Notes: generated by a model not told the origin, from the letters alone. A stretch of DNA of 64,000 bases from Candidatus Aminicenantes bacterium (GCA_963729855.1 CAVSPT010000005.1:439661-503660), one strand, 5' to 3'. Positions 42,858 through 60,610 are shown, numbered from the stretch's first letter. Made by a program: numbers and translations.

Positions 42858-43330
42858 GGGCGGCAGCCTCCGCACAGGTGCTGATGGAGATCCTCGCCTT
42901 GAACGTACATGGCGGGCAGGTCGAAATGGAGAGCGGCCTTGTCGACCGCCGTCATGCGGAACTCCCGGGAAAACCGGATGGCCGCGGTCGGACAGACTTC
43001 GACGCACAGGCCGCAGAAGGTGCAGCGCTCCAGGGTCCAGTCGAATTTCGTCGGGCGCATGGTCCTGGCTCCCTCGGCCTTCAGGCCTTCGATGTCGAAG
43101 CAGCCCGTCGGGCAGATCCGCTGGCAGGCCTTGCAGGCCACGCACAGCGGCCCGCCCTGTTCGTCGCGATAGAGGCGGAGCAGGCCGCGGAAACGGGCCC
43201 CCGGCTCCCGGACCTGCTCCGGGTACTGGACGGTGACCTTGCGGCTGAAATAATGGCGCAGGGTGACGGACAGGCCGAGGAGCATGTCGGTCAGGAAGAA
43301 TTTCCTGAGGAAACGGCCGATCGATCTCAT
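42854..43330 (-). CDS. nuoI: NADH-quinone oxidoreductase subunit I (2x[4Fe-4S])
   Basis: 'CVACKACQRICP' and 'CTFCGLCVEVCP'. ATG at 43330. Confidence 0.9.
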   Translation of the reverse strand: MRSIGRFLRKFFLTDMLLGLSVTLRHYFSRKVTVQYPEQVREPGARFRGLLRLYRDEQGGPLCVACKACQRICPTGCFDIEGLKAEGARTMRPTKFDWTLERCTFCGLCVEVCPTAAIRFSREFRMTAVDKAALHFDLPAMYVQGEDLHQHLCGGCRP

Positions 43331-45446: not shown

Positions 45447-45945
45447 GCTTCGTCCCGTGGAGCGGAAAATCTTTGCGAAGGGGATATCCCTCGAAATCGT
45501 CGGGCAGATAAATCCGCTTCAGGTCGGGATGGCCGGCGAAGCGGATCCCGAACATGTCGTAGGCCTCGCGCTCGGCCCAATCCGCCGACTTATAGATCGG
45601 CTGGGCGGAGTCGATCTCCTCGCCTTCGGCCGCGTCGACGGACAGGCGGACGCGCAGTCCGGCCGGGAACCCGTAGAGCTGGTAGAGAACCTCGAAGCGC
45701 GGTCCCGCCGGACCGGGCTCGGCGGAACCCTTTTTCAGCCGGTCCAGGGCGATGATGTCCAGGAGGGCGTTGAAACCCTGCTCCTCTTTAAGAAAGGCCA
45801 ATGCTGCGCGCAGGCCGGACAGGCGCAGCTTGACGATCAATCCGTCCGCGGCCAAGGACGTCTCCAAAACGGCGGCGCCCAGCCGCCCGCGCAGGGCGTC
45901 GGCGACGTCCTGGAGACGGCGATCGTTATCCTGCGCGGCGGGCAT
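45436..45945 (-). CDS. nuoC: NADH-quinone oxidoreductase subunit C (30-kDa subunit)
   Basis: '[42 protein letters not shown]'. Confidence 0.9.
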
Positions 45946-46429
45946 GGGGTTTGAGGATTTCCCGGGTCGGATGCATATGGGCGATCTGGTCCTGTAAAGT
46001 CATCAAGCCGTGAAGAAGGCCCTGCGGCGTGGGGGGGCAGCCGGCGACGAAGACGTCCACCGGGATGACCTTGTCCACGCCCTGCAGAACGGAGTACGTC
46101 GGAAAGGGACCGCCTCCTATGGCGCAGTTGCCCATGGCCACGACCCACTTCGGGTCGGGCATCTGTTCCCAAAGGCGGCGGACGACCGGGGCCATCTTGT
46201 TGGTCACCGTGCCGGCGACGATGAACAGGTCGGCCTGGCGCGGAGAGGCCCGGAAGAGCTCCATGCCGAAGCGGCTGATATCGTAGCGGGCCGCGGCCGT
46301 GGCGATCATCTCGATGGCGCAGCAGGCCAGGCCGGAGCCGAAGGGCCAAAGCGAATTCTTCATGGCCCAGGTGATGAACCGGTCGGCCTTGGCCAGCAGA
46401 AAGGGTTCTTTGAGGCCCGGGTCAGTCAT
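45926..46429 (-). CDS. nuoB: NADH-quinone oxidoreductase subunit B (PSST/N2 cluster)
   Basis: 'GLACCAIEM', '[10 protein letters not shown]', 'GCPP'. ATG at 46429 after GGAGG. Confidence 0.9.
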
Positions 46430-46793
46430 CGTTCCTCCGGAATTCGAGCGCGCCCGCCTTCCATGCGTAGACGTACCCGAGAAGCAGGATGGCGATGAAG
46501 ATGGCCGCTTCAACCACGCCGAACAGCTTCAGCCTGTCGTGGACGATGGCCCAGGGGAAGAGAAAGAACGTTTCGACCTCGAAGACGATGAAGGCCAGCG
46601 TAAGCAGGTAAAAGCGAATGGAATAGGATTCGCGGGCTGTCGGCGTGGCCGGGTCCACGCCGCACTCATAGGGAACATGCTTGTCGCCGACGTTGCTCCT
46701 CCGGTAGCGGATGAGAGAGATGCCCAGCAGAAGGCCGACGGAAAAAATCACCGAAATGACAAAAAAAAGAAAAAAATACCAATCGTTCTGCAT
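46422..46793 (-). CDS. nuoA: NADH-quinone oxidoreductase subunit A
   Basis: ND3-like 'YECGVDP', '[12 protein letters not shown]'. ATG at 46793. Confidence 0.9.
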
Positions 46794-46852
46794 GTTCGTG
46801 CGCGCAATTATACACGAATGGTCTTTCAAAATAAACGGAGAAAAGCCCGCCC

Positions 46853-47878
46853 TCATACCCCGGCCATGGCGCCGTGTGAGGACTGGAAAGCCCGCCAGCG
46901 CTTGATGCGCAGGACGGCGCGGAGGCACGAAAACAGGCAGGCGGCGGCGATGATGCCCAGGATCAAGGCCAGGCTCCAGTCCCTTATGGCGGCGAGCTTG
47001 GCCGGCCCGGCCGCCCCTCCGGTCATGGCCGCCCAGGAGGCGCGGATTCCCTCGGCATGCGCGCCGAGGGTCTGAACGATCATGATCAGCACCGCCGCGT
47101 CGATCACCGCCCGCGCGCCGACGCGCAGCCGAGTGAGATTCGGACGGATCAGATTGATCAGGGCCAGGACCGCGCCGGCGGCGATGAGGACGGCGATGGG
47201 GACGAAATAGCGCGACTGGAAATCAAGCCAGAGCGCCGAGGAGGGAAGATCCTTGAGGGCGCCGTCAAGGGACAGGACGATCGGGAAGTGGAACCTTCCC
47301 AGCCACCAGCCCAGGACGAGCAGGCTGGCGACGAGATCGGCGATGGAGGAGCTCCGGGGAGCCCTGATCATATCGCGGACGGCCGGCAGGCGGCGGGGAT
47401 TCCAATCCCCGCGGCCGGCGGATTGGCGCTGGAAGCGCTCCCCGACGGCGAATCCGAGGGTGATCATGGCGAACAGGGTCAGGGCCGTCGTCCAGAGATG
47501 TCCCAGCCCCTGGAACAGCAGGGCCCCGGAGTGGGCGGCCCGGTACGAAGGGACGAAGATCATGAGCCCGGCCCAAATCAGAAACCAGGGAACCAAATAG
47601 ATCCCGGCGGCCACTTTGAGGACGAATTCATAGATGGGATAAAGCTGGGGCCCGATGAGGTGCCGCTGGGGAAGGAAGCGTCCGGCCACGGTGAAGGGGC
47701 TCCCCCGCCGTTTGAGCAGGGCGGAGAGATCCTCCTCGTTTAAAACCCGGCCAAGCTCCTTCCCGCGCTCCTCGATCTGCAGGCGGATGTCTTCGGCAAG
47801 CTCGGCGATGACGTCGATTTTCTGGTCCTTGGGCAGCCAGAAACGGACGGCGTTCAGATAGCGTTCAACGAGATCCAT
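46853..47878 (-). CDS. PadR-associated membrane protein (HAAS/DUF1700-like putative sensor)
   Basis: N-terminal 'MDLVERYLNAVRFWLPKDQKIDVIAELAEDIRLQIEE' helix typical of PadR-partner proteins, followed by several TM helices. Overlaps padR by 14 nt. Confidence 0.6.
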   Translation of the reverse strand: MDLVERYLNAVRFWLPKDQKIDVIAELAEDIRLQIEERGKELGRVLNEEDLSALLKRRGSPFTVAGRFLPQRHLIGPQLYPIYEFVLKVAAGIYLVPWFLIWAGLMIFVPSYRAAHSGALLFQGLGHLWTTALTLFAMITLGFAVGERFQRQSAGRGDWNPRRLPAVRDMIRAPRSSSIADLVASLLVLGWWLGRFHFPIVLSLDGALKDLPSSALWLDFQSRYFVPIAVLIAAGAVLALINLIRPNLTRLRVGARAVIDAAVLIMIVQTLGAHAEGIRASWAAMTGGAAGPAKLAAIRDWSLALILGIIAAACLFSCLRAVLRIKRWRAFQSSHGAMAGV

Positions 47879-48212
47879 GGCGCGTCTCCTTCATGATATC
47901 GTTCAGGGAAGCCGTGATCGTCTCCCACTCCGCGGACAATTGCCTGAAGATCCGCTGTCCTTCGGCGGACAGGCGATAGAAGCGCTTGGGCCTCTTGTCC
48001 TCGTCCCGCCATTCGCTGACCAGCAGCCCCTGGCTTTCCAGCCGCCGCAGGAGCGGATACAGCGTCCCTTCATCGACGACCATTCCCATTTCGGCCAGGG
48101 CCTTGCGCAGGGTGTAGCCGTACTGTTCACTCCGAAGCTCGGCCAGGACCGCCAGCGGGACGCACCCGCGGCGAAGCTCGAGGCGTAGGTTTTCGAACTG
48201 ATCGTTGGTCAT
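47865..48212 (-). CDS. PadR-family transcriptional regulator
   Basis: Winged HTH 'CVPLAVLAELRSEQYGYTLRKALAEMGMVVDEGTLYPLLRRLESQGLL'. Confidence 0.85.
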   Translation of the reverse strand: MTNDQFENLRLELRRGCVPLAVLAELRSEQYGYTLRKALAEMGMVVDEGTLYPLLRRLESQGLLVSEWRDEDKRPKRFYRLSAEGQRIFRQLSAEWETITASLNDIMKETRHGSR

Positions 48213-50136: not shown

Positions 50137-50222
50137 TCTATTCTAAGATGACAGCGATGCCGAGGTTAAGGGCCGGTTCCTCATAGAGGGCAGAAAACCA
50201 AATTCATAGAGGCCGTTGGGTG

Positions 50223-50762
50223 ATGATTAGCGCCAGATCGGTTTTGGACGAACTGAAGGCTTGCCATGTGACGTTCTGTGTCGGTTTGGCGGAAACGGCA
50301 TTGGCCGCTCTGGCCGCCCTTCTCGAGAACGATCAGTCGGTGCGGTTCGTTCCCGTGACCCGGGAAGGGGAAGCATTTGCTCTGGCTTCCGGATTGTGGA
50401 TCGGCGGACAGAACGCGGTCATCTTGGTGCAAAATACAGGATTGCTGGAGAGCGGAGATGCGCTCCGCGGAACGGCTCAACGCATGCGGGTCCCGGTCCT
50501 TTGCCTGATCGCGTATCGCGGCCACTCGCATTTGCTCGGGCAAAAAAAGCATAACGGGTCTGAGCCGCGGAATCCCGACGAGTTCAGCCGTCCCGACTTG
50601 GATTCGGCGGCTCTCGTCACGGAGCCCACATTGAATGCCTGGGGCATTCCCTTTGAATTCCTGGACTCCGATGCCGATCTCCCGAAAATATCACGAGCTT
50701 TCGACCGCGCCCAAAGGGAATCTCGGCCGGTCGCCCTCCTGGTCACGAACACGATGGTTTAA
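50223..50762 (+). CDS. Sulfopyruvate/phosphonopyruvate decarboxylase alpha-subunit-like (TPP enzyme N-terminal pyrimidine-binding half)
   Basis: About 180 aa: 'HVTFCVGLAETALAALAALLENDQSVRFVPVTREGEAFALASGLWIGGQNAVILVQNTG' fits a TPP enzyme N-terminal domain. Partnered immediately with the beta half. Confidence 0.65.
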   Translation: MISARSVLDELKACHVTFCVGLAETALAALAALLENDQSVRFVPVTREGEAFALASGLWIGGQNAVILVQNTGLLESGDALRGTAQRMRVPVLCLIAYRGHSHLLGQKKHNGSEPRNPDEFSRPDLDSAALVTEPTLNAWGIPFEFLDSDADLPKISRAFDRAQRESRPVALLVTNTMV

Positions 50763-50780: not shown

Positions 50781-51371
50781 ATGCTAACCAAGGAACAGCT
50801 GCTTAAGCCCCTGGCCCAGCTCCGAAGCACGGCCGTTGTCGTGACCTGCATGAGCGTAACGCGCCCCTGGGGACGCTATTCGTCGAGCGAGCTGGATTTT
50901 GCCTCGGCTGACAGCGCCATGGGTCATACGGCCGATCTGGCTCTGGGGATCGCTCTGGCCCAGCCGCAGCGCAAGGTCATCTGCTTAAATGGCGATGGAA
51001 GCATGTTGATGACCTTGGGAACGCTGGCCACGGTCGTCGCCGCGCGAGCCACGAACTTCGCCCTCTTCATCGTCCAGAATGATTCTTACGAGCTGACCGG
51101 ACATCAGCCGATTCCGGCGGCGGGGCGCATTGATTTTGCCCGGCTGGCGCGAGGCGCGGGTTTCGAACACGTCTATGATTTTGAAAATGCGGATGATTAT
51201 GAAAGGCGATTGCCGGCCGTTCTTGCGGAGGAAGGACCGGTGTTTGCGGCGGTTCGAGTCGAAAAAGGCGCGGAAGGCCCCATCAGCCGAAGCGCAAAGG
51301 AACCGTCTCGGTACCTTCAAGTCTCGCTCGCTGAATCAGCCCATCGTCTCAGGAAGATGTTGATATCGTAG
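50781..51371 (+). CDS. Sulfopyruvate/phosphonopyruvate decarboxylase beta-subunit-like (TPP-binding C-terminal half)
   Basis: 'ICLNGDGSMLM' GDG-x24-N thiamine-diphosphate motif. GGAG ribosome-binding site. Gene starts 19 nt after the alpha stop. Confidence 0.65.
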   Translation: MLTKEQLLKPLAQLRSTAVVVTCMSVTRPWGRYSSSELDFASADSAMGHTADLALGIALAQPQRKVICLNGDGSMLMTLGTLATVVAARATNFALFIVQNDSYELTGHQPIPAAGRIDFARLARGAGFEHVYDFENADDYERRLPAVLAEEGPVFAAVRVEKGAEGPISRSAKEPSRYLQVSLAESAHRLRKMLIS

Positions 51372-51509: not shown

Positions 51510-51539
51510 TTGACGGATTTTTGGATTTTCCCATATAAT
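51510..51539 (+). promoter_or_regulatory. Sigma70-like promoter (TTGACG-18-TATAAT) upstream of the Cys-rich response regulator
   Basis: Read directly. Perfect -10 hexamer. Confidence 0.5.
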
Positions 51540-51660: not shown

Positions 51661-52371
51661 ATGCCGTCGGAGCCAATCATCATGGAGAAAAAGATAGGAT
51701 CCTTTATCCAGGTCTATTGTCCGGAAATCATGGACATGATCAACCCGGGAGAATGGACGGATTGCCCTTATTATCGAGGCCAGAAGCTCGACATGTCGAA
51801 TACCGAGGAGGCGTTGAAGCAGATCTTCCGCTGCCATGTCCAATGCGACTGCAAGATTCAATATCAGTATTACGAGGAGGGGAAGCTGGTGAAGAAGGTT
51901 CTCGATTCCGTGGAGGACCAGGAAAGCCTCCGCCGGATCCTTCTTCTGGTGAGCAAACCGACCGAGAAGCCGAATAAAAAAACGAAAATCCTGATCGTTG
52001 ACGACGACGCGGATTTCCTCGAAATGCACTCCGTTGTCCTGAAAAACAAGGGATACGAAGTCATCACGGCCCCGAGTGCAAAAAAATGCGAGCAGGCCCT
52101 GGAGAAAGGCCGGCCCGACCTCGTGATCCTGGACGTCATGATGGAGCAGTTCGACGCCGGATTTGAACTGAGCAAGAAGATCAAGAAGAAGTATGACGGC
52201 CTGCCGGTGATGCTCCTCACGTCCATCGGGCAACAAACAGGGCTGGACTTCTCCTCCAACGCCGAGGTCTTAAGAACGACCGGCGCCGACGCTCTTCTCG
52301 ACAAGCCGGTCAGTCCCGAGGTGTTCATCGCCGAAATTGAGAGGTTGACCGCGCCCATGAAGAAGCGGTAA
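51661..52371 (+). CDS. Response regulator with N-terminal Cys-rich domain and C-terminal receiver (REC) domain
   Basis: C-terminal 'KILIVDDDADFLEMH...DLVILDVMM...KPV' REC with phospho-acceptor Asp. N-terminal about 90 aa with C20, C35, C58, H59, C62, C64 ('YCPE','DCPYY','RCHVQCDC'). Alternative ATG at 51682 has the better ribosome-binding site. Confidence 0.7.
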   Translation: MPSEPIIMEKKIGSFIQVYCPEIMDMINPGEWTDCPYYRGQKLDMSNTEEALKQIFRCHVQCDCKIQYQYYEEGKLVKKVLDSVEDQESLRRILLLVSKPTEKPNKKTKILIVDDDADFLEMHSVVLKNKGYEVITAPSAKKCEQALEKGRPDLVILDVMMEQFDAGFELSKKIKKKYDGLPVMLLTSIGQQTGLDFSSNAEVLRTTGADALLDKPVSPEVFIAEIERLTAPMKKR

Positions 52372-52387: not shown

Positions 52388-54475
52388 ATGGACATCCTCA
52401 GCATCTCCAACGCCAAGTGCCGCAAGTGCTACCGGTGCGTACGGGAGTGCCCGACCAATGCCCTGAAAATCGACCAGGGGGTGGTCAAGAGAATCTGGAG
52501 CCGCTGCATTCTCTGCGGGCTCTGCTACCGGCACTGCCCCCACGCGGCCGTGAACGCCCATACCGGAATCAAGCGCGTCCTCGATCTGCTCGAGTCGGGG
52601 CAGAAAGTCGTCGCCTGCCTGGACCCCACTTTTCCGGCGGTCTTGGACAGGGGCACGCCGGGCCAGCTTGTGACCGCGTTGAAAAAACTCGGTTTTCACG
52701 AAGTCTGGGAGGCCGCGGTCGGGGGCGACTTGGTGGCCGAACCCTACCGTTCCTGGCTCGCCCAAAATAGGGAATCTAGCTGGATTTCTTCATTCTGCCC
52801 GTCGCTCGTCTTTTACATTCAAAAATTCGCCCCCTCTCTGAGCAGCCAGCTCGTGCCGATCGTTTCTCCGATGATTGCCTGCGGCCGAGCGGTTAAACAG
52901 CTCTTGGGTGCCGACACGAAAGTGGTTTTTATCGGTCCGTGCATCTCTCGAATCTGGGAGCGCATGGACCGGAGCGGAAGGGAAGCCATCGATTATGTAT
53001 TGGTCTATCGGGACATCACCAACACTCTCAGGGCGAGAGGAATCGACCGCGAAGAACAAGAACCGTCAGAATTTGACGGGCCCCGGAGCAGCCTGGGAAG
53101 GGTCCTGAGCTTTTCGGGGGGGATGAGCAAGTGCGCCGGGTTCGAGCAGGACCTCCTGAATCTGGACTATGTGGTTGAGGCCGGAGCCCCAGAAGCCATG
53201 CGGGCCTTGAAGCAGCTCCAGGAAGGAAAGATCCGCGCGCGGTTTCTCGACTTGCTGTTGTGCCGTGGCTGCATCAACGGTCCCGTAACGGACATGCAAA
53301 TCTCGGGTCCCAGTCGAAAGCAGATTGTCGTGGATTTCATTAAAGCCCAGGATCTGGTCGAGCCGGCGAAAAAAAAGGAAGGCCTCGGGGAGCCCTCTCA
53401 TTTGAATCTCACACGGAGCTTTCGACCCCATGATGCGTCCCTGCCGGATCCCACGGACGCGGAGGTCGAGGCCGTTCTGGCTCAACTCGGGAAATCCTAC
53501 CCCGACCAAAACCTGGACTGCGGGGCCTGCGGCTACAGCTCCTGCCGGGAGAAGGCCAAGGCCATCGTCCTGGGATTGGCTGAGATGGAAATGTGCCACC
53601 ATTTTCTTTTGGAACGCCTCCAGAGCCTCTATTCGCAGCTGGAAAAGTCTCACCGCCAGCTCAAGAGCTCCCATGAGCAATTGGAGGGGGCCCAACGGCA
53701 GTTGATCCAGACGGAGAAAATGGCCTCCCTCGGACAGTTGGCGGCGGGCGTGGCCCATGAGCTGAACAACCCCATCGGCACGATCATGATGTTCAGCCGG
53801 ATGATCCAGAAGGAAATGGCCCAGGATCAAAAATGGCAGAAGGATATCACCATCGTCGTCCAGGAAGCGGACCGGGCGGCTAAGATCATCAAGGACCTGC
53901 TGAGCTTCGCCAGGGAAACGAAGGTCAAGCCAGGGCAGGTGAGCATCAATCCGGTCATCCAAGAAACCCTATCGCTTCTTGTCAAGCAATCTCTCTTTCA
54001 CAATATCGAAGTGGTTGTCCTCTTGGACCCGACGCTGCCGACGACGTTTGCCGATCCGGACCTCCTGAAGCAGGTATTTTTCAACATCATCCTGAACGGC
54101 GCCCAGGCTATGGAAGGGAAAGGGACGTTGACCATCCAAACTCAGAACATCGATAACGGCAGGACCATCGAAATCCGGATCCAAGACACCGGCAAGGGAA
54201 TCCCCGAGAAACACATCCCCAAGCTCTTCGACCCGTTCTTCACGACCAAGGAGAAGGGAACGGGGCTGGGCCTGGCCCTTGTTTACAGCATCGTTTCCAA
54301 ACACAAGGGATCGATCGCCGTAGAAAGCGAGCTGGAGAAAGGCGCCACGTTCCTCATCCGGCTGCCCATCCTGAGCCAGGAAGACTGGCTGAAGCGTGAA
54401 GGCCAGGTCGAAGACTTAGGGACCGGGCTCGAAGGAAAATACAATGAAAGCCCAAGCAAAGATCTTATTGGTTGA
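52388..54475 (+). CDS. Histidine kinase with N-terminal [FeFe]-hydrogenase-like (HydS-type sensory) domain: 2x[4Fe-4S] ferredoxin + H-domain-like + Cx2Cx4Cx16C + HisKA + HATPase_c
   Basis: 'CRKCYRCVRECP', 'CILCGLCYRHCP'. H-cluster motif analogues 'SSFCPS' (TSCCP), 'GPCISRIWE' (MPCxxKxxE), 'LLLCRGCINGP' (MACxGGCxxG). 'CGACGYSSC-x16-C'. H-box 'AHELNNPIG'. HATPase 'DTGKGIPEKH...GTGLGLALV'. Confidence 0.8.
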   Translation: MDILSISNAKCRKCYRCVRECPTNALKIDQGVVKRIWSRCILCGLCYRHCPHAAVNAHTGIKRVLDLLESGQKVVACLDPTFPAVLDRGTPGQLVTALKKLGFHEVWEAAVGGDLVAEPYRSWLAQNRESSWISSFCPSLVFYIQKFAPSLSSQLVPIVSPMIACGRAVKQLLGADTKVVFIGPCISRIWERMDRSGREAIDYVLVYRDITNTLRARGIDREEQEPSEFDGPRSSLGRVLSFSGGMSKCAGFEQDLLNLDYVVEAGAPEAMRALKQLQEGKIRARFLDLLLCRGCINGPVTDMQISGPSRKQIVVDFIKAQDLVEPAKKKEGLGEPSHLNLTRSFRPHDASLPDPTDAEVEAVLAQLGKSYPDQNLDCGACGYSSCREKAKAIVLGLAEMEMCHHFLLERLQSLYSQLEKSHRQLKSSHEQLEGAQRQLIQTEKMASLGQLAAGVAHELNNPIGTIMMFSRMIQKEMAQDQKWQKDITIVVQEADRAAKIIKDLLSFARETKVKPGQVSINPVIQETLSLLVKQSLFHNIEVVVLLDPTLPTTFADPDLLKQVFFNIILNGAQAMEGKGTLTIQTQNIDNGRTIEIRIQDTGKGIPEKHIPKLFDPFFTTKEKGTGLGLALVYSIVSKHKGSIAVESELEKGATFLIRLPILSQEDWLKREGQVEDLGTGLEGKYNESPSKDLIG

Positions 54476-54845
54476 TGACGACCCCGATTTTCTGGAGATG
54501 CACAAGGCCGTTCTCCAGAGCCGGGGCTATGAGGTTTTCACCGCCGCGAGCGCCCAGGAAGGCCTGGGACGCGTCCGGGCGGAGATGCCGGACCTGATCA
54601 TCCTGGACCTCATGATGGAGAAGCATGACGCGGGATTTTCCTTCAGCAAGGCGGTCAAGACCGACCCGCTGTTCAGGACGATCCCCATCCTCATGGTGAC
54701 GTCGGTGGCCGAGGCCACCGGCTATCGCTTTTCGCTCGAGGAAGACGGGTATTGGATGAAAACGGACGATTTCCTGAATAAGCCCGTTCCGCCTGAAGTC
54801 CTCCTGGAAGCCGTCGATAAACTCCTGCAGAAGAAAAAAGAATGA
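54444..54845 (+). CDS. Stand-alone receiver-domain response regulator (CheY-like)
   Basis: 'ILLVDDDPDFLEMH...DLIILDLMM...KPV'. Overlaps the kinase stop. Confidence 0.8.
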   Translation: MKAQAKILLVDDDPDFLEMHKAVLQSRGYEVFTAASAQEGLGRVRAEMPDLIILDLMMEKHDAGFSFSKAVKTDPLFRTIPILMVTSVAEATGYRFSLEEDGYWMKTDDFLNKPVPPEVLLEAVDKLLQKKKE

Positions 54846-54846
54846 A

Positions 54847-56325
54847 ATGAATACACAAGGCCGAATTCTCGTCGTCGACGATGAAATGGGAATCCGCGAA
54901 GGCTGCCGGCGCGTCCTGGCGGAGGAAGGGTACGACATCGACCTGGCCGGAGACGGAAATGCCGGCCTGCAGAGGGCCCGGGAGAAATCCTATGACCTCG
55001 TCCTGGTCGACCTCATGATGCCGGGCATCGGCGGGCTGGACATGATCAATAAGATCCACGAGATCGATCCCGAGATCATCATGGTCGTGATCACGGGATT
55101 TGCCACCATCGAAACGGCGGTCGAGGCGACGAAGAGGGGGGCCTACGATTACCTTCCGAAACCCTTCACTCCGGAAACGCTGGCCGTCCTGGTCAAGAGG
55201 GGGCTCGAGAAGCGGGAGCTCCGATTGGAGGCCCAGAGGCTTCAGCAGGAACGGGAGCAGAGGCTCCTGGAGCTGGCCGGTGAAAAGAGCCGCCTCCGGA
55301 GCATCATCGGCTGCATGGCCGACGGCGTTCTGGTCACGAACCTCGAGGGTCACCTGGTCCTCTGGAACGCCTCCGCCGTGAACATGCTGAAACTCCGGGG
55401 AACGGACGAACCCGGGAAACCTCCGGGCCATTACATCAAGAATCAGCCTTTGATCGAATCCCTGGCAAAAATCATGAACTCGAAGGACGAAAGTGTCTCG
55501 ATGATCAGCCAGGAGATCCCCTCGGATGACGCGAAATCGGTCCTGATGGCCCAGATGGCCCCCGTCCGGGACGACCAGGGGAAGCTTCTCGGAGCCGTGA
55601 CGGTCCTGAGGGACATCACGAAGCTCAAGGAGATCGATAAGATCAAATCCCAGTTCGTCTCCATGGTGGCGCATGAGCTTCGCTCGCCCTTGGCGGCCAT
55701 CGAAGGCTGGCTGGGCCTCCTGCTGTCCGGCGAAGTCGAAGGGGACAAAGAACAAAAACGACAATGGCTGCGGCGGGCGAAAGAGCGGGCCCACTCTCTC
55801 CTGGCTCTCGTCCAGGACTTGCTGGAGATCAACAAGATCGAGGCCGGGAAGGTCGCCCTGAAGATGGAGTCCCTCCAGATGACCGACATCCTGGGCAAGA
55901 TCATCGACTTTCTCAAGCCCGAAGCGGACAAGAAAAATGTCTCCATCCAAATGAGATCTCCCGCGCCGATTCCGCTCCTCCGGGCCGACGTTCAGGACAT
56001 GGAAAAGCTCTTCACCAACCTGATCAGCAATGCCATCAAATACAACGTCGAGAAGGGTTCGATCACGATCGAAACGTCTTTGGATGCGAACTACGTCGGG
56101 ATTCACGTCCACGATACCGGGATCGGCATATCCCGGGACGACCTTCCGCGGATTTTCGACGATTTCTTCCGGGCCGAAAACAGCAAAACGGCTAAGATCA
56201 GCGGAACAGGACTGGGGTTGACGATCGCCAAGAAAATCGTGGACTCCCACTTCGGGCATATCGAAGTGAAGAGCGAGCCGGATAAGGGAAGCACCTTCTC
56301 CGTCTACCTGCCTTACCGGACATGA
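54847..56325 (+). CDS. Hybrid sensor: N-terminal receiver + PAS + HisKA + HATPase_c histidine kinase
   Basis: 'ILVVDDEMGIREG...DLVLVDLMMPG', PAS-like 'IGCMADGVLVTNLEGHLVLWN', 'VAHELRSPLAAI', 'GTGLGLTIAKKIV'. Confidence 0.8.
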   Translation: MNTQGRILVVDDEMGIREGCRRVLAEEGYDIDLAGDGNAGLQRAREKSYDLVLVDLMMPGIGGLDMINKIHEIDPEIIMVVITGFATIETAVEATKRGAYDYLPKPFTPETLAVLVKRGLEKRELRLEAQRLQQEREQRLLELAGEKSRLRSIIGCMADGVLVTNLEGHLVLWNASAVNMLKLRGTDEPGKPPGHYIKNQPLIESLAKIMNSKDESVSMISQEIPSDDAKSVLMAQMAPVRDDQGKLLGAVTVLRDITKLKEIDKIKSQFVSMVAHELRSPLAAIEGWLGLLLSGEVEGDKEQKRQWLRRAKERAHSLLALVQDLLEINKIEAGKVALKMESLQMTDILGKIIDFLKPEADKKNVSIQMRSPAPIPLLRADVQDMEKLFTNLISNAIKYNVEKGSITIETSLDANYVGIHVHDTGIGISRDDLPRIFDDFFRAENSKTAKISGTGLGLTIAKKIVDSHFGHIEVKSEPDKGSTFSVYLPYRT

Positions 56326-56347: not shown

Positions 56348-58612
56348 ATGAGTCTAAGCCGAACGCATCAACCCAACGAAATCCTCAGGAAGGAGCAGCT
56401 GGCTCCGGCGATCACGCTGTTCGAAGTCTATGCTCCGCTCGTCGCCCGAACCGTCCGGGCCGGCCAGTTTGTCGTCGTTCGGGCCGACGACTATGCGGAA
56501 CGGATTCCGCTCACGGTCGCCGACCGCAGCCTCGAAAACCAATCCATCACCCTGATCGTCCAAGTCGTCGGCCTCTCGACCAGGAAGATGGACACGCTCA
56601 AAGCCGGGGATGCGTTCCTCGACGTCGTCGGGCCCCTGGGGCAGCCGACGGAGATCAAGAAGGCCGGGACCGTGGTCTGTATCGGGGGAGGCGTCGGCGT
56701 CGCGCCCGTCTATCCCATCACCAAAGCTTTCAGAGCGGCGGGAAGCCGCATTCTGGCCATCATCGGCGCTAAGAACAAAGAGATGATCATCCTGGAAAAC
56801 GAGATGCGGGCCGTGAGCGACGAGCTTTACATCACGACGGACGACGGCACGGCCGGCCGCCGGGGGTTCGTCTCGGACGAACTCCAAAGGCTGATCACGG
56901 ACAAAGTGCCGATCGACCTGGTCATCGCCATCGGGCCCGGGATCATGATGAAAGTCATATCCGACATCACCAGGAAACACGGGATCCCGACGATCATCAG
57001 CCTGAACTCGCTGATGGTGGACGGGACCGGCATGTGCGGCAGCTGCCGGATCACCGTGGGGAACGAGACGAAGTTTGTCTGTGTCGACGGGCCCGAGTTC
57101 GACGCCCACCAGGTGGATTTCCAGGAGCTCCTCAAGAGGTCGGAAATGTACAAGCGAGAGGAGCACCGGGCCATGTGGGATCATGCCTGCCGGCTCCTGG
57201 CCGCCGAGAAGGCGCTCGGCAAGGCCAAACGTCGGGAGCCCATGCCCAAACAGGACCCCAAGCTCCGGGTTCAAAATTTCAACGAGGTCGCCCTGGGCTA
57301 CACCAAGGAGCAGGCCATTCGTGAAGCCTCGCGGTGCTTGAGTTGTAAAAAGTCGCCCTGCGTGGCCGGATGCCCGGTCGACATCGATATCCCGGGCTTC
57401 ATCGAACTCGTCCGGAAGGGCGACCTCATCGCGGCCAGTCATAAGATCAAAGAGAAGAACAGCCTCCCCGCCATCTGCGGACGGGTCTGCCCCCAGGAAG
57501 AGCAATGCGAGGTCGCCTGCGTCCTGTCCAAAAAAGGGCAGCCCATCGCCATCGGTCGGCTGGAACGGTACGTGGCCGATTATGAATTCCAGCAGGGGGA
57601 CGTCCGGATGCCGAAAAATCTGAGCCCGACGGGGAAAAAGGTCGCCGTCATCGGGGCCGGGCCGGCCGGTTTGTCGGCGGCCAGCGAACTTGCCAAAATG
57701 GGGCACAGCGTCATCGTCTTCGAGGCCCTCCACAAGCCGGGCGGCGTTCTCGTTTACGGGATTCCCGAGTTCCGTCTTCCCAAGTGGATCGTCCAGCGCG
57801 AATGCGAATACATCGGCAGGCTGGGGGCCGAAATCCGGGTGAGCCAGGTCGCCGGAAAATCCTTCACCATCGACGACCTTTTGAGCAACGGCTATGATGC
57901 CGTCTTCATCGGGACCGGGGCGGGCCTGCCGTACTTCATGAAAATCCCCGGGGAGAACCTGAACGGGGTGTACTCGGCCAACGAGTTCCTGTCCCGGGTG
58001 AACCTCATGAAGGCCTATCTTTTCCCGGAATTCCAGACCCCCGTCCATTATGGGCAGAAGATCGCCGTCGTGGGAGGCGGGAACGTGGCCATGGATTCCG
58101 CCCGGACCTCGCTCCGCTTGGGAGCCGAAAAAGTCTACCTGATCTACCGCCGGGCGAGAGAACAAATGCCGGCCCGCGAGGAGGAGATCGAGAACGCTTT
58201 CGAGGAAGGCGTCGAACCGCGCCTGCTGACCAATCCCATTCGGATCCTGGGAAACGAAAAAGGCTGGGTGAAGGGGATCGAATGCATCCAGATGGAGCTC
58301 GGAGAAGCGGATGGATCAGGCCGGAGACGGCCAATTCCCAAAAAGGGCTCTGAGCACATTATTGATGTCGACATGGTGATCATGGCCATCGGCCAGGGCC
58401 CCAATCCCCTCTTGACGTCGACGACCGCCGGCTTGGCGCTGACAAAGACGGGGAACATCATTGCCGACGAAACGACGGGCAAGACCTCGAAGAAAGGAGT
58501 GTTCGCCGGCGGCGACATCGTCACCGGCGCGGCCACGGTCATCCTGGCCATGGGGGCGGGCAAAAAGGCGGCCCAATCGATCGACGTCTATTTAAGGACT
58601 GGAGAGTGGTGA
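56348..58612 (+). CDS. Fused NfnA-NfnB-like flavoprotein: PyrK/SudB-like FAD + [2Fe-2S] domain fused to GltD/SudA-like 2x[4Fe-4S] FAD/NAD(P)H oxidoreductase
   Basis: N-terminal half 'GGGVGVAPV', 'CGSCRI...C.DGPEF'. C-terminal half 'CLSCKKSPCVAGCP', 'CGRVCPQEEQCEVAC', 'VAVIGAGPAGLSAA', 'GVFAGGDIVTG'. Confidence 0.8.
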   Translation: MSLSRTHQPNEILRKEQLAPAITLFEVYAPLVARTVRAGQFVVVRADDYAERIPLTVADRSLENQSITLIVQVVGLSTRKMDTLKAGDAFLDVVGPLGQPTEIKKAGTVVCIGGGVGVAPVYPITKAFRAAGSRILAIIGAKNKEMIILENEMRAVSDELYITTDDGTAGRRGFVSDELQRLITDKVPIDLVIAIGPGIMMKVISDITRKHGIPTIISLNSLMVDGTGMCGSCRITVGNETKFVCVDGPEFDAHQVDFQELLKRSEMYKREEHRAMWDHACRLLAAEKALGKAKRREPMPKQDPKLRVQNFNEVALGYTKEQAIREASRCLSCKKSPCVAGCPVDIDIPGFIELVRKGDLIAASHKIKEKNSLPAICGRVCPQEEQCEVACVLSKKGQPIAIGRLERYVADYEFQQGDVRMPKNLSPTGKKVAVIGAGPAGLSAASELAKMGHSVIVFEALHKPGGVLVYGIPEFRLPKWIVQRECEYIGRLGAEIRVSQVAGKSFTIDDLLSNGYDAVFIGTGAGLPYFMKIPGENLNGVYSANEFLSRVNLMKAYLFPEFQTPVHYGQKIAVVGGGNVAMDSARTSLRLGAEKVYLIYRRAREQMPAREEEIENAFEEGVEPRLLTNPIRILGNEKGWVKGIECIQMELGEADGSGRRRPIPKKGSEHIIDVDMVIMAIGQGPNPLLTSTTAGLALTKTGNIIADETTGKTSKKGVFAGGDIVTGAATVILAMGAGKKAAQSIDVYLRTGEW

Positions 58613-58944: not shown

Positions 58945-59886
58945 ATGTTCTCAAGACCGCGGCTTGCCGTTGCCGTCCTTCTCTTGGGCCTGGCCGTCGC
59001 CGCGCGCCCGGCCGCGGCCCAGGAAAAAAGCGGGGAACTCACCCACCAGATCTCCGTGCGCGCGATCTCCCTCGCCGTCACCGTCCAGGACAGGTCCGGG
59101 CGGTACGTCAACGACCTGGGCCGGGAGGATTTCACGGTCCTCGAGAACGGCCAGAAGAAGGAGATCACCTATTTCAAATACGATTTCGAGGCCCCCCTGA
59201 GCCTGGCCGTCCTCCTCGACGTCAGCGGAAGCATGGCCCTCCAGGACAAGCTCAAGGACTGCCGGGAGGCTCTGAAGGCTTTGATCACCGGACGTCTCGG
59301 TCCGCGCGACGAGGTCGCGCTCCTCATCTTCGCCGACGGGCAGGTCGAGGTCGCGGCGCCGTTCTCGACCGATAAGACCCGCTTCCTGGCCGTTTTGGAC
59401 AGGACCGAGGCCTTCGGGCAGACGGCCCTGAACGACGCCGTGACCGCATCGTCGGAATTCGCCAACCGGGGGCATAACGAGAAGAGGACCCTCCTCCTGC
59501 TGACGGACGGAATCGAGAACGACAGCCGGACGACCCCGGACCAGGCCCTCCAGATCGCCCGGCGCGTGGACGTCCCCATCTACACGGTCGGATATAAAAT
59601 CCCCCTGAGCGAACGGCTCCTCCTGGAGCATAAGCGGCGCGCGGGGACGACGCCGGCCGGAATCATCGACGATTTGCAGAAGTTCTCCCGGACCACGGGC
59701 GGGAAAGCGTTCCTCTCGAATTCCCCGCCGGAGCTGAAGGGGGCGCTGGACGAGATCCGGCGCGAGGTGAGCCACCAATACCTTTTGGGGTATACTTCCT
59801 ATAAGGATCCGGGGGGCGAGTATAGAGAAATCAGCGTCCTGACCTCCAACAAGGGATATCGAGTCAGGACGCGCCAAGGATATTGA
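58945..59886 (+). CDS. Secreted von Willebrand factor A (VWA) domain protein
   Basis: MIDAS 'LLDVSGSM', signal peptide, AAGGA ribosome-binding site. Confidence 0.75.
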   Translation: MFSRPRLAVAVLLLGLAVAARPAAAQEKSGELTHQISVRAISLAVTVQDRSGRYVNDLGREDFTVLENGQKKEITYFKYDFEAPLSLAVLLDVSGSMALQDKLKDCREALKALITGRLGPRDEVALLIFADGQVEVAAPFSTDKTRFLAVLDRTEAFGQTALNDAVTASSEFANRGHNEKRTLLLLTDGIENDSRTTPDQALQIARRVDVPIYTVGYKIPLSERLLLEHKRRAGTTPAGIIDDLQKFSRTTGGKAFLSNSPPELKGALDEIRREVSHQYLLGYTSYKDPGGEYREISVLTSNKGYRVRTRQGY

Positions 59887-59907
59887 GGGAACTCAAAGGA
59901 GGTCCAC

Positions 59908-60543
59908 ATGAGGAACAGCAGGAGAGCGGCTCTGGTCCTGGCCGTCGCCCTGGTCGGCCTGGTCCTGGCCCCGGCCTGCGCGACCAAGACGATGGTCAAC
60001 GAGCAGATCGCCGGCCTGGACAAGAAGGTCGAGGGCGTGGAGACGTCGGTCGAGGAAAACCAGAAAAGGCTCAAGGAGCACGACGAACGGCTGGCCACCA
60101 TCGGTTCGCTGATCAGCCAGCAAGAGGCCCAATTCAAGGCCGTCGACGGGAAGATCGAAGACGTCCGGAAAGTCGCCCAGGGCAAGCTCCTCTACCAGGA
60201 GACGATCCGGAACAAGGACGCCCATTTCAAGTTCGACAGCTACGAACTGAGCCCGGAGATCAAGTCCGCCCTGGACGCCTTTGTCGAAAAGCTCATCGCC
60301 GAAAACAAAGGAGTCTACCTCGAGATCCAGGGCCACACCGACTCGGTCGGGCCGGAGGAATGGAACCTGATCCTGGGGAACAAACGGGCCGGGGCGGTCC
60401 TCGAATACCTCTACAAGCAGCACCACATCCCGCTCCACCGCATGCAGGTCATCAGTTTCGGGAGCGCCAATCCGGTGGGCGACAACAAGACGGCCGAGGG
60501 ACGGGCCCAGAACCGGAGAGTGGAGGTCCTCGTTTACGAATGA
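59908..60543 (+). CDS. OmpA-family lipoprotein (coiled-coil N-terminal region plus OmpA-like peptidoglycan-binding domain)
   Basis: Lipobox 'LAPAC'. OmpA C-terminal 'IQGHTDSVGPEEWNLILGNKRAGAV...RRVEVLVYE'. AAAGGAGG ribosome-binding site. Confidence 0.8.
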   Translation: MRNSRRAALVLAVALVGLVLAPACATKTMVNEQIAGLDKKVEGVETSVEENQKRLKEHDERLATIGSLISQQEAQFKAVDGKIEDVRKVAQGKLLYQETIRNKDAHFKFDSYELSPEIKSALDAFVEKLIAENKGVYLEIQGHTDSVGPEEWNLILGNKRAGAVLEYLYKQHHIPLHRMQVISFGSANPVGDNKTAEGRAQNRRVEVLVYE

Positions 60544-60610
60544 CCTGAGATTTTGAAGCTTGGAGGGGGGCCTGTCCGGAGGGGGGCGATCCCCCTGCTC
60601 CCGTGCGCCG

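What the first reader, a model, noticed from the sequence alone, without database searches (positions are those of the whole stretch)
52388..54475. Histidine kinase whose sensor module is a HydS-type sensory [FeFe]-hydrogenase-like domain
After two ferredoxin-type Cx2Cx2Cx3CP motifs, the N-terminal roughly 400 aa align to the H-domain of [FeFe] hydrogenases. All three H-cluster motifs are present in modified form. 'SSFCPS' replaces TSCCP, so the [4Fe-4S]H-ligating Cys is kept but the proton-relay Cys is Phe. 'GPCISRIWE' replaces MPCxxKxxE, with Lys changed to Arg. 'LLCRGCINGP' replaces MACxGGCxxG. This is followed by a Cx2Cx4Cx16C motif, the arrangement I recall being described for the extra [4Fe-4S] site of putative sensory HydS hydrogenases. 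Described HydS proteins then carry a PAS domain and signal to a separate kinase. Here the hydrogenase-like module is fused in one polypeptide to HisKA and HATPase_c. Loss of the proton-transfer Cys argues for a sensing role (H2, O2 or redox poise) rather than catalysis. No hydE/F/G maturase genes are visible in the window, so the site may carry only a [4Fe-4S] cluster, as in Nar1-type proteins.
Basis: partly seen in the sequence, partly recalled or inferred. Interest (0 to 1): 0.8.

Follow-up and report, generated by a model that had tools for sequence, protein, structure and literature searches.

The report
Hydrogenase-like iron-sulfur sensor histidine kinase
This is a soluble bacterial signalling kinase whose sensor half is a slimmed-down [FeFe]-hydrogenase, most likely used to sense hydrogen or cellular reducing power. 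The design is common in sequence databases but has never been tested, and this copy has an unusual active-site pocket.

Summary
ORF 52388-54475 (+) encodes a 695-aa soluble protein with five parts: two ferredoxin-type [4Fe-4S] motifs, a full-length [FeFe]-hydrogenase H-domain (Pfam E 1e-40), a Cx2Cx4Cx16C cluster motif, HisKA and HATPase_c.

The organism is a Candidatus Aminicenantes bacterium, and more than 100 orthologue clusters share the architecture. The fusion is not new as a sequence type. Among the 124 full-length 50%-identity representatives scanned, 44 are kinase fusions. One paper remarks on such a fusion in Elusimicrobia, and HydDB already has putative sensory group C classes. No member has been studied experimentally.

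Two points are new.
- Direct fusions to kinase, sigma-54 activator or GGDEF domains carry Cx2C in the third H-cluster motif. PAS-type HydS proteins carry the classical Cx3C.
- This family has a remodelled diiron pocket: A230D, I268A/S, C299F, K358R, F417L (CpI numbering). It is invariant within the family and recurs in other lineages.

Canonical relatives, and one Asp/Arg variant, sit inside hydABC/hydEFG operons. The Aminicenantes cassette is always followed by an NfnAB-like fusion.

Best reading: an H2 sensor kinase (about 0.5). Rival: a [4Fe-4S]-only redox sensor (about 0.3). It is a new variant of a known kind, of moderate interest.

The parts
51510..51539 (+). Promoter-like site TTGACG-18-TATAAT upstream of the five-gene cassette
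   Evidence: 11 of 12 consensus matches. This is a consensus match only, not evidence of function.
51661..52371 (+). Response regulator, 236 aa: unknown N-terminal domain of about 105 aa plus a C-terminal receiver domain
   Evidence: Response_reg at residues 110-226. The N-terminal part has no match in Pfam, NCBIfam or PDB. The gene is conserved upstream of the kinase in L001, L004, L006 and L008.
52388..54475 (+). Hydrogenase-like sensor histidine kinase, 695 aa, soluble
   Evidence: No hydrophobic segment: maximum Kyte-Doolittle 19-residue mean is 1.46.
52403..52552 (+). Two ferredoxin-type Cx2Cx2Cx3CP motifs (residues 6-55), predicted to bind 2 x [4Fe-4S]
   Evidence: Pfam Fer4 families. 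All eight Cys are conserved (six in 101 of 101 orthologues, C11 in 94 with the rest gaps).
52604..53284 (+). H-domain (residues 73-299). Cluster ligands are C137, C185, C292 and C295. The pocket residues are D79, P80, T81, A109, F136, S160-P161-M162, G183, R188, E191, L240 and L290.
   Evidence: Fe_hyd_lg_C E 1e-40. Mapping to CpI. Family conservation. Fold match.
53510..53596 (+). C-terminal cluster motif C378-x2-C381-x4-C386-x16-C403 (Pfam FeS, PF04060)
   Evidence: The four Cys are invariant in 101 orthologues. The same motif is described for group C and D sensory hydrogenases.
53597..53815 (+). Predicted single continuous helix, residues 404-476. It runs from the last cluster ligand (C403) into the first helix of the kinase dimerisation domain, which carries H457.
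   Evidence: AlphaFold2 secondary structure. pLDDT is below 50 over residues 435-456, so the continuity of the helix is a prediction.
53729..53917 (+). HisKA dimerisation and phospho-acceptor domain; H-box AHELNNP with H457
   Evidence: H457, E458 and N461-P462 are invariant.
54053..54370 (+). HATPase_c catalytic domain with N box (566-575), G1 box (600-605), F box (614-621) and G2 box (624-629)
   Evidence: The closest solved kinase is ZraS, PDB 9jfj, E 2e-41.
54444..54845 (+). Stand-alone receiver protein, 133 aa; its start overlaps the kinase stop by 32 nt
   Evidence: Conserved in all orthologous loci and in the distant relatives L011, L014, L015, L094, L096 and L097.
54847..56325 (+). Receiver-PAS-HisKA-HATPase_c hybrid kinase, 492 aa
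   Evidence: Conserved in the same loci.
56348..58612 (+). NfnA+NfnB-like fusion, 754 aa (FAD/NAD subunit plus GltD-like Fe-S flavoprotein)
   Evidence: Pfam. NCBIfam PRK12778 scores 1078 bits against a cutoff of 1103. It lies directly downstream of the cassette in 6 of 6 Aminicenantes loci and in the sister locus L011.

Best explanation
**What it is.** A cytoplasmic sensor kinase of the lineage of putative sensory (group C-like) [FeFe]-hydrogenases. It most likely reports hydrogen.

**Shown**
- One polypeptide carries two ferredoxin-type cluster motifs, an H-domain with all four H-cluster cysteines, a fourth four-Cys motif, and a complete HisKA/HATPase_c kinase core with H457.
- It has no transmembrane segment.
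- It lies in a tight five-gene cassette: regulator, kinase, receiver, receiver-PAS-kinase, NfnAB-like fusion.

**Inferred**
- The H-domain holds an H-cluster whose diiron site sits in an altered pocket. An Arg188/Asp79 pair replaces the usual Lys/Ala, and Phe136 replaces the proton-relay Cys.
- H2 binds and is split slowly because there is no proton relay. The cluster therefore dwells in a reduced state, as in TmHydS and TamHydS.
- The resulting change of charge or conformation passes through the C-terminal cluster domain. Its last ligand, C403, starts the long helix that runs into H457.
- This switches the dimeric kinase between autophosphorylation and phosphatase modes.
- Phosphoryl groups then go to the neighbouring receiver proteins and the hybrid kinase.
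- In Aminicenantes the output probably adjusts electron-sink enzymes when H2 builds up. Candidates are the NfnAB-like NAD(P)H:ferredoxin enzyme and the nearby glutamate dehydrogenase.
For: - **Homology and ligands.** C137, C292 and C295 are invariant, and C185 is present in 100 of 101 orthologues.
- **Literature description.** Loss of C299 and of E279, E282, R286 and S319, together with the Cx2Cx4Cx16C motif, matches the published description of sensory groups C and D. Their characterised members bind an H-cluster and turn over H2 slowly (PMC8163306; PMC10055695).
- **Relatives with the same cassette (kinase, receiver, hybrid kinase) lie inside hydrogenase and maturase operons.**
  - L094: hydB-hydA-REC-HK-REC-hybrid HK-hydG-hydF.
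  - L015: hydC-hydB-hydA-HK-REC-hybrid HK, with HydA scoring 877 bits against a cutoff of 765.
  - L002: hydG-hydF-HK, with HydG scoring 415 bits against a cutoff of 312.
- **The Asp/Arg pocket is compatible with that linkage.** L097 (P0240; D230, A268, R358) reads rex-hydC-hydB-hydA-HK-REC-hybrid HK-hydE-hydG. HydE scores 295 against a cutoff of 255, and HydG 514 against 312.
- **The pocket is under strong constraint in the family.** D79 is in 98 of 101 sequences, F136 in 101, R188 in 100, E191 in 101 and L290 in 100.
- **A related Aminicenantes contig carries hydrogen genes near the cassette.** These are a [NiFe] hydrogenase gene, hypA, and a group D-type H-domain protein.
- **Kinase core.** It is complete, and a predicted helix links C403 to H457.
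Against: [quoted passage not shown] It is kept in 129 of 145 representatives scored but is Arg here.
- **Four more cavity positions change with it** (A230D, I268A/S, S232T, F417L). No characterised hydrogenase with such a pocket was found.
- **No hyd genes nearby.** No hydA or hydEFG lies within 10 kb in any of the 7 loci of this clade. The constant neighbour is an NfnAB-like enzyme, not a hydrogenase.
- **NCBIfam hydrogenase models score below their cutoffs.** The best is TIGR04105 at 188 bits against a cutoff of 450.
[quoted passage not shown] The step from H-cluster to helix therefore remains a guess.
- **Untestable here.** Presence of hydEFG in this genome could not be checked.
Confidence: 0.5

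Rival explanations
1. The H-domain has lost the diiron subcluster and keeps only its [4Fe-4S] cubane, in the manner of Nar1. The protein is then a chain of four [4Fe-4S] clusters that equilibrates with reduced ferredoxin or with the neighbouring NAD(P)H/ferredoxin enzymes. It reports cellular reducing power to the kinase rather than H2 itself.
For: - **Coordinated remodelling of the diiron cavity.** D230 together with a non-Lys residue at 358 occurs in 10 of 16 Asp-bearing representatives, against 6 of 129 others (p 6e-8).
- **The same proteins tend to change three further cavity positions**:
  - a small residue at 268 (8/10 against 6/123, p 6e-8);
  - a non-aromatic residue at 417 (5/10 against 8/123);
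  - a non-Ser residue at 232 (6/10 against 10/123).
- **Charge.** An added carboxylate next to an anionic cofactor, with Lys changed to Arg or His, would disfavour cyanide binding. An Asp-Arg pair could instead fill the empty site. This is inference.
- **Recurrence.** The pattern recurs in several branches of a neighbour-joining tree.
- **Genomic partner.** In the Aminicenantes clade and its sister the partner is not a hydrogenase. It is an NfnAB-like fusion and, in L001, L006 and L011, a NuoE-NuoF-NuoG-like-NfnA-NfnB set in which a NuoG-like protein stands where HydA stands in L015, L094 and L097.
- **Two sensors in one locus.** In L096 a canonical sensor and an Asp/Arg variant sit side by side, which suggests different inputs.
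Against: - L097 shows an Asp/Arg-pocket kinase as the only sensor inside a hydCBA-hydEG operon.
- The pocket is nearly invariant within the family rather than decaying.
- No prokaryotic H-domain without the diiron site was found in the literature searched.
- The Asp-Arg covariation can also be read as a new anchor for a longer cyanide-binding side chain.
- At least one Aminicenantes genome has another H-domain protein that should need the maturases.
Confidence: 0.3
2. The clusters serve as sacrificial sensors of oxidants (O2, NO, peroxide). Damage to a cluster, rather than its reversible reduction, switches the kinase, as in the FNR and NreB types of sensor.
For: - There are twenty conserved cysteines in four cluster motifs.
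- The cubane would be exposed if the diiron site is empty.
- Aminicenantes are described as anaerobic fermenters (PMC5459899).
- Fe-S proteins acting as gas and oxidative-stress sensors are mentioned in PMC13104023.
Against: - Nothing in the conserved neighbourhood is an oxidative-stress gene. The neighbours are redox-balance enzymes.
- Relatives are embedded in hydrogenase operons.
- An elaborate four-cluster wire is not needed for a damage sensor.
Confidence: 0.08
3. The protein is mainly a working hydrogenase, and the kinase part merely tethers or regulates it.
For: TmHydS and TamHydS do show low H2 turnover in vitro.
Against: - The whole group A proton pathway is missing, and Phe occupies position 299.
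- The kinase core is intact, and receivers are translationally coupled to it.
- No electron-partner subunit is encoded with it other than the Nfn-like gene.
Confidence: 0.02

Closest known systems
TmHydS of Thermotoga maritima (group C, subclass M2f, putative sensory [FeFe]-hydrogenase)
   Same: - N-terminal 2 x [4Fe-4S] domain.
- H-domain that lacks C299 (Ala in TmHydS) and the proton pathway, with Gly at position 353.
- C-terminal Cx2Cx4Cx16C cluster.
   Different: - TmHydS ends in a PAS domain and has no kinase.
- PAS-type representatives keep Cx3C in motif 3, and nearly all keep the A-P-S and K358 cavity residues.
- The window protein has Cx2C and D-P-T/R188, and is fused directly to HisKA/HATPase_c.
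- The sensor regions of the PAS-length representatives (about 560-590 aa) are about 28-37% identical to the window protein.
TamHydS of Thermoanaerobacter mathranii (group D, subclass M2e). One review says Greening's scheme, on which HydDB builds, folded group D into group C; HydDB has a class C1 'histidine kinase-linked'.
   Same: - Same Fer4, H-domain and four-Cys layout.
- No PAS domain.
- Leu at position 497.
- Proposed sensor working with a histidine-kinase-like ATPase.
   Different: - In that type the kinase-like protein is a separate neighbouring gene.
- It keeps K358 and Cx3C, as does the 424-aa Aminicenantes example in L004.
- The window protein is only about 25% identical to that L004 protein.
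Kinase-fused group C hydrogenases noted in groundwater Elusimicrobia (bioRxiv 10.1101/765248)
   Same: A hydrogenase H-domain is fused to a histidine-kinase ATPase domain and is proposed to take over the sensory role of PAS. It lies next to trimeric group A hydrogenases and Rex, as in loci L015, L094 and L097.
   Different: - The paper gives only a passing remark, with no residue analysis and no experiments.
- The Aminicenantes family is not next to a group A hydrogenase, and it has the Asp/Arg/Phe pocket.
Regulatory [NiFe]-hydrogenase with its kinase (HoxBC-HoxJ / HupUV-HupT; HydDB group 2b)
   Same: It works alike: a slow, non-energy-conserving hydrogenase reports H2 to a histidine kinase and a two-component system (and my own knowledge of the Cupriavidus necator and Rhodobacter capsulatus systems).
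   Different: The metal site and fold are unrelated. Sensor and kinase are separate proteins that form a complex, whereas here they are one chain.
Nar1 / NARFL (eukaryotic hydrogenase-like Fe-S assembly proteins)
   Same: An H-domain fold with conserved cubane cysteines and no hydrogenase function. This is the model for the [4Fe-4S]-only reading. The comparison rests on my own knowledge and was not tested here.
   Different: Those proteins are eukaryotic, have no kinase, and have a different N-terminal cluster motif. By sequence the window protein groups with bacterial group C-like sensors.

Membership tests
[FeFe]-hydrogenase H-domain superfamily (Pfam PF02906) | Significant, full-length match to the H-domain profile and fold | tested here: met
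   E 9.9e-41 over profile positions 2-245 of 245. Foldseek matches DdH, CpI, CbA5H and HydA with probability 1.00.
[FeFe]-hydrogenase H-domain superfamily (Pfam PF02906) | Four cysteines that hold the [4Fe-4S]H cubane and bridge to the diiron site (CpI C300, C355, C499, C503) | tested here: met
   C137, C185, C292 and C295 align to them. They are conserved in 100-101 of 101 orthologues.
Bona fide [FeFe]-hydrogenase (classical motifs L1-L3) | L1 TSCCPxW, L2 MPCxxKxxE with K358, L3 ExMxCxxGCxxG with Cx3C spacing | tested here: not met
   L1 is SSFCPS, L2 is GPCISRIWE with Arg in place of Lys, and L3 is DLLLCRGCINGP with Cx2C. NCBIfam hydrogenase models score below their cutoffs: TIGR04105 gives 188 bits against 450.
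Bona fide [FeFe]-hydrogenase (classical motifs L1-L3) | Binds the [2Fe] subcluster and turns over H2; hydE, hydF and hydG are present in the genome | not testable with these tools
   Only 64 kb of the genome is visible and it holds no hydEFG. The gene-position index does not hold this genome.
Putative sensory [FeFe]-hydrogenases, groups C and D (HydS) | N-terminal two-cluster ferredoxin domain plus C-terminal Cx2Cx4Cx16C motif | tested here: met
   definition from PMC8163306.
Putative sensory [FeFe]-hydrogenases, groups C and D (HydS) | Proton-relay Cys299 and the rest of the group A proton pathway are absent | tested here: met
   F136, Y120, W123, N127 and V156 occupy positions 299, 279, 282, 286 and 319.
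Putative sensory [FeFe]-hydrogenases, groups C and D (HydS) | Residues that hydrogen-bond the cyanide ligands are conserved (stated for TmHydS in PMC10055695) | tested here: not met
   K358 is Arg, A230 is Asp and S232 is Thr. By contrast, 123 of the 145 representatives scored at both positions keep Ala or Ser at 230 together with Lys at 358.
Putative sensory [FeFe]-hydrogenases, groups C and D (HydS) | PAS domain after the C-terminal cluster (subclass M2f, group C in the strict sense) | tested here: not met
   No PAS match. A predicted helix runs from C403 straight into HisKA.
Putative sensory [FeFe]-hydrogenases, groups C and D (HydS) | Gene lies with hydrogenase structural or maturation genes | tested here: not met
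   None lies within 10 kb in the window or in L001, L005, L006, L008 and L011. L004 has a [NiFe] hydrogenase gene and a group D-type gene nearby. The feature is met by the relatives L002, L015, L094, L096 and L097.
HydDB subgroup assignment (C1, C2 or C3) | Nearest-neighbour classification against the HydDB reference set | not testable with these tools
   HydDB is not available here. Only its published class definitions were read.
HisKA-type (class I) sensor histidine kinases | H-box histidine in a HisKA domain, plus N, G1, F and G2 boxes in HATPase_c | tested here: met
   H457, N box 566-575, DTGKGI 600-605, FDPFFTTK 614-621 and GTGLGL 624-629. The match to ZraS has E 2e-41.
HisKA-type (class I) sensor histidine kinases | Cognate receiver proteins are encoded alongside | tested here: met
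   Three receiver-domain genes lie in the same cassette, one of them overlapping the kinase stop codon.
Nar1/NARFL-type hydrogenase-like proteins | Cubane cysteines are kept, the diiron site is absent, and the organism has no maturases | not testable with these tools
   Cofactor content and genome-wide hydEFG status are unknown. The sequence groups with bacterial group C-like sensors.

The most novel reading that the evidence does not exclude
A branch of kinase-fused hydrogenase-like sensors (Aminicenantes and a sister lineage) has plugged its diiron pocket with an Asp-Arg pair and a Phe. It keeps only [4Fe-4S] clusters and has been rewired from hydrogenase operons to Nfn-type NAD(P)H:ferredoxin enzymes. 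It would then be a hydrogenase turned into a sensor of ferredoxin or pyridine-nucleotide redox poise. [quoted passage not shown]
Probability: 0.3. Interest if true: 0.7.

Novelty: new variant of a known kind. Interest (0 to 1): 0.48.

Why it matters
How sensory [FeFe]-hydrogenases pass their signal on is an open question. The newest study of TamHydS concludes that the partners and the pathway still have to be identified (PMC13104023).

In kinase-fused members the sensor and the output are one chain. Autophosphorylation gives a direct read-out of what the H-domain detects and of which cluster matters.

This Aminicenantes family adds a natural experiment. It has an invariant Asp/Arg/Phe pocket and a Cx2C ligand spacing that no characterised hydrogenase was found to have. 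It is wired to an Nfn-like enzyme rather than to a hydrogenase.

Either outcome is useful:
- an H-cluster that tolerates Arg in place of the conserved cyanide-binding Lys; or
- a hydrogenase fold reused as a plain Fe-S redox sensor.

The canonical relatives found here (L094 and L015 types) would be the better first targets for the signalling question.

Tried and rejected
- **Link between the variant pocket and loss of hydrogenase genes.** For a while I favoured the idea that the Asp/Arg pocket marks loss of the diiron site. Three of four canonical relatives lay beside hyd genes and none of eight variant loci did. Looking up three more independent variant lineages overturned that contrast. L097 is an Asp/Arg kinase inside rex-hydCBA...hydE-hydG, and L096 lies beside hydA. 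The idea is kept only as a rival.
- **Cx2C as a disqualifier.** Rejected, because Cx2C or CCxGC sensors sit between hydA and hydG-hydF (L094, L015, L002).
- **The window's own genome.** The look-up of encoding contigs does not hold it, so hydEFG could not be sought genome-wide.
- **Genome-contig scan with the single protein.** It gave only 6 loci because the patterns were too specific.
- **Metagenome-contig scan with the family alignment.** It chose generic kinase motifs (LFDPFFTT, KGTGLGL..). It returned 78 matches confined to the kinase region and only 2 full-length relatives.
- **HydF search.** It showed HydF in 'Acidobacteria/Acidobacteriota' MAGs, but no hit was named Aminicenantes.
- **Literature.** No paper was found on hydEFG in Aminicenantes. 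Greening et al. 2016 is not held.
- **afdb50 fold library.** Not available.
- **The regulator's N-terminal domain.** No match anywhere.
Full report
**1. The observation**

ORF 52388-54475 on the plus strand starts with ATG and encodes 695 residues. Pfam finds five elements:

| Element | Residues | E-value |
|---|---|---|
| Fer4 (two ferredoxin-type motifs) | 6-55 | 9e-10 (Fer4 family) |
| Fe_hyd_lg_C (entire profile, positions 2-245 of 245) | 73-299 | 9.9e-41 |
| 'Putative Fe-S cluster' domain, PF04060 | 375-403 | 1e-9 |
| HisKA | 448-510 | 4e-13 |
| HATPase_c | 556-661 | 9e-26 |

HMMER alignments to CpI and to the HydA subunits of the bifurcating enzymes give the following correspondences:
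- F136 = C299 and C137 = C300.
- G183 = M353, C185 = C355, R188 = K358 and E191 = E361.
- L290 = M497, C292 = C499 and C295 = C503.
- Positions 279, 282, 286 and 319 of the proton pathway are Tyr, Trp, Asn and Val.

The classical motif is Cx3C.

An AlphaFold2 model has mean pLDDT 72, and 80-94 over the first 250 residues. Its front half superposes on solved [FeFe]-hydrogenases and its back half on the kinase ZraS. There is no hydrophobic segment, so the protein is cytoplasmic.

**2. Organism and family**

The closest proteins carry the name Candidatus Aminicenantes. So do the genome contigs that encode 72-75% identical copies.

More than 100 clusters of 58-100% identity have the same length and architecture. 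Conservation in 101 full-length orthologues is as follows:

| Position | Conservation |
|---|---|
| Twenty cluster cysteines | 18 in all 101 sequences; C185 in 100; C11 in 94 with the rest gaps |
| F136 | 101 of 101 |
| R188 | 100 |
| E191 | 101 |
| D79 | 98 |
| T81 | 97 |
| L240 | 93 |
| L290 | 100 |

**3. What is already known**

- HydDB lists putative sensory group C [FeFe]-hydrogenases with three subclasses: C1 histidine kinase-linked, C2 chemotactic and C3 phosphatase-linked (PMC5037454).
- In the papers I could read, 'C1' means a monomeric hydrogenase next to a separate kinase-type gene.
- Groups C and D are described as lacking C299 and the proton pathway and as carrying a C-terminal Cx2Cx4Cx16C cluster. 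TmHydS adds a PAS domain. TamHydS has none and is flanked by a kinase-like ATPase (PMC8163306).
- JGI annotation already names members of the present family 'signal transduction histidine kinase/iron only hydrogenase large subunit-like protein'.

No paper I could find analyses or tests a fused member.

**4. The wider superfamily**

A full HMMER scan with the sensor region (residues 60-415) found 2767 representative proteins at E below 1e-3. The best 150 were examined. They fall into two kinds by the third H-cluster motif.
- 62 have the classical Cx3C, with a median length of 574 aa. Of the 56 scanned with Pfam, 31 match the PAS family, only one has a kinase and only one a sigma-54 domain.
- 74 have Cx2C and 9 have CCxGC. 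Of 68 full-length ones, 43 carry HATPase_c (42 also HisKA), 12 are sigma-54 activators and 5 are GGDEF proteins.

Direct fusion of this sensor to an output domain is therefore common, and it goes with the shortened cysteine spacing. I did not find this link described.

**5. The pocket**

[quoted passage not shown] It lists A230, P231, S232, I268, S323, P354, F417 and V423 as forming the cavity (PMC10147833).

Among the representatives, 123 keep Ala or Ser at position 230 together with Lys at 358. The window family has Asp-Pro-Thr at 230-232, Ala or Ser at 268, Phe at 299, Arg at 358 and Leu at 417.

The association statistics are:

| Comparison | Asp/non-Lys group | Others | p |
|---|---|---|---|
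| Asp at 230 going with a non-Lys residue at 358 | 10 of 16 | 6 of 129 | 6e-8 |
| Small residue at 268 | 8 of 10 | 6 of 123 | 6e-8 |
| Non-aromatic residue at 417 | 5 of 10 | 8 of 123 | 8e-4 |
| Non-Ser residue at 232 | 6 of 10 | 10 of 123 | 2e-4 |

In a neighbour-joining tree the window family groups with P0123 (Asp, Phe, His). The other Asp/Arg or Asp/His proteins are scattered, so the combination arose more than once. These tests ignore shared ancestry and the tree is crude, so the p-values overstate independence.

**6. Genomic context**

In the window the five genes are packed tightly:
- regulator 51661-52371;
- kinase 52388-54475;
- receiver 54444-54845, which overlaps the kinase by 32 nt;
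- receiver-PAS-kinase 54847-56325;
- NfnA+NfnB-like fusion 56348-58612.

A promoter-like site lies at 51510-51539.

The same order is found in all five other Aminicenantes loci (L001, L004, L005, L006, L008). It is also found, without the upstream regulator, in the 46%-identical sister locus L011.

Flanking genes vary but are redox-balance enzymes:
- glutamate dehydrogenases;
- glutamate synthase;
- NuoE-NuoF-NuoG-like-NfnA-NfnB sets (L001, L006, L011);
- in L004, a [NiFe] hydrogenase gene with hypA, and a 424-aa group D-type H-domain protein that keeps K358 and Cx3C.

No hydA, hydG or hydF lies within 10 kb of any of these seven loci. The 64-kb window has no hydrogenase or maturase gene.

**7. 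Relatives with the canonical pocket**

These tell a clear story.
- L094, from an Acidobacteriota MAG, reads hydB-hydA-receiver-kinase-receiver-hybrid kinase-hydG-hydF.
- L015 reads hydC-hydB-hydA-kinase-receiver-hybrid kinase. HydA passes the NCBIfam cutoff.
- L002 reads hydG-hydF-kinase.

The kinase-receiver-hybrid kinase cassette is therefore an old unit that normally sits with bifurcating-type [FeFe]-hydrogenases and their maturases. That is what one expects of an H2 sensor. It also shows that Cx2C is compatible with that role.

**8. Is the Asp/Arg pocket still a hydrogen site?**

I first thought not, because the variant loci then in hand lacked hyd genes. Three further look-ups corrected this.
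- L097 (P0240; Asp230, Ala268, Arg358) is the only sensor in rex-hydC-hydB-hydA-kinase-receiver-hybrid kinase-hydE-hydG. HydE, HydG and HydA all score above their curated cutoffs.
- L096 has a canonical kinase directly after hydA and then, after the receiver and hybrid kinase, a second Asp/Arg kinase that is 39% identical.
- L098 is a Cx3C Asp/His protein followed by a SpoIIE-type phosphatase, with no hyd genes nearby.

The variant pocket is thus not tied to loss of hydrogenase linkage.

The simplest reading is that Arg, anchored by the new Asp, takes over the cyanide contact of Lys, and that the site still holds an H-cluster with altered properties. The alternative is an Asp-Arg pair filling an empty site, leaving a plain [4Fe-4S] redox sensor. 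This remains possible. It fits the Aminicenantes context, where an Nfn-type enzyme and a NuoG-like protein stand where hydrogenase genes stand elsewhere.

I put the two readings at about 0.5 and 0.3.

**9. Mechanism: shown and inferred**

Shown:
- the ligand sets for four clusters;
- an intact kinase core with H457;
- three receiver domains in the operon;
- no DNA-binding output recognisable in the cassette.

Predicted: one helix runs from C403, the last ligand of the C-terminal cluster, through to H457. The middle of that helix has low confidence.

Inferred:
- The state of the H-domain is passed through the C-terminal cluster domain to this helix and changes the balance between kinase and phosphatase activity.
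- Phosphoryl groups then flow to the stand-alone receiver, the regulator with the unknown N-terminal domain, and the hybrid kinase.

A caution applies. In TamHydS the C-terminal cluster is not reduced by H2, and its authors doubt that its redox state is the signal (PMC13104023). The cluster may be a structural hinge instead.

The physiological guess rests only on gene neighbourhood. It is that high H2 or over-reduction switches on an Nfn-type enzyme and glutamate dehydrogenase as an electron sink.

**10. Verdict**

The architecture is a known, uncharacterised kind that is common in databases, so the novelty claimed for the fusion is overstated.

What is new is the variant: the Cx2C ligand spacing shared by direct-fusion sensors, and the invariant Asp/Arg/Phe pocket of this family with its Nfn-linked cassette.

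It is of moderate interest. As a class, the fused sensors offer a direct way to test how sensory hydrogenases signal.

Noticed in passing
window 51661-51975 (+): The first ~105 residues of the response regulator upstream of the kinase match no Pfam, NCBIfam or PDB entry. The whole protein is nonetheless 64-72% identical in four orthologous loci. This may be an undescribed output domain of the cassette.
   Followed up: partly
window 56348-58612 (+): NfnA-like and NfnB/GltD-like parts are fused into one 754-aa protein of the PRK12778 type (1078 bits against a cutoff of 1103). The gene always lies directly downstream of the kinase cassette in Aminicenantes loci and in the sister locus L011.
   Followed up: partly
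window 37031-47900 (-): A nuo-like operon with NuoN, NuoM, NuoL, NuoH and NuoD. nuoD abuts nuoH, so nuoE, nuoF and nuoG are missing (the type without an NADH module). In related genomes, NuoE/NuoF/NuoG-like genes sit beside the sensor cassette instead (L001, L006, L011).
   Followed up: no
window 50220-50762 and 50781-51371 (+): A split thiamine-pyrophosphate enzyme resembling the sulfopyruvate/phosphonopyruvate decarboxylase alpha and beta parts. Both halves score below the curated cutoffs. It lies between the glutamate dehydrogenase gene and the cassette.
   Followed up: no
representatives P0123-P0271: Across the superfamily, H-domain sensors fused directly to kinase, sigma-54 activator or GGDEF domains have Cx2C or CCxGC in the third H-cluster motif. 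PAS-only HydS proteins keep Cx3C.
   Followed up: partly
L004 16443-20126: An Aminicenantes contig carries a 424-aa group D/M2e-type H-domain protein (TSTCP, TPCPAK, CPDGC). It is flanked by DRTGG, HATPase_c and PHP genes, lies 5 kb from the cassette, and has a [NiFe] hydrogenase gene 9 kb upstream.
   Followed up: partly
L096 5906-11980: Two hydrogenase-like kinases lie in one locus beside hydA. The first has the canonical Ala/Lys pocket. The second (P0141) has the Asp/Arg pocket and is 39% identical. This looks like a paired sensor arrangement.
   Followed up: no
L013 5295-5912 and L002 4900-5454: A Peptidase_M54 (archaemetzincin-like) gene directly follows the hydrogenase-like kinase in two unrelated contigs.
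   Followed up: no
window 5628-7268 (-), 19391-21139 (+), 59883-60548 (+): Sizeable ORFs with no Pfam match. At 63% G+C some of them may be spurious.
   Followed up: no
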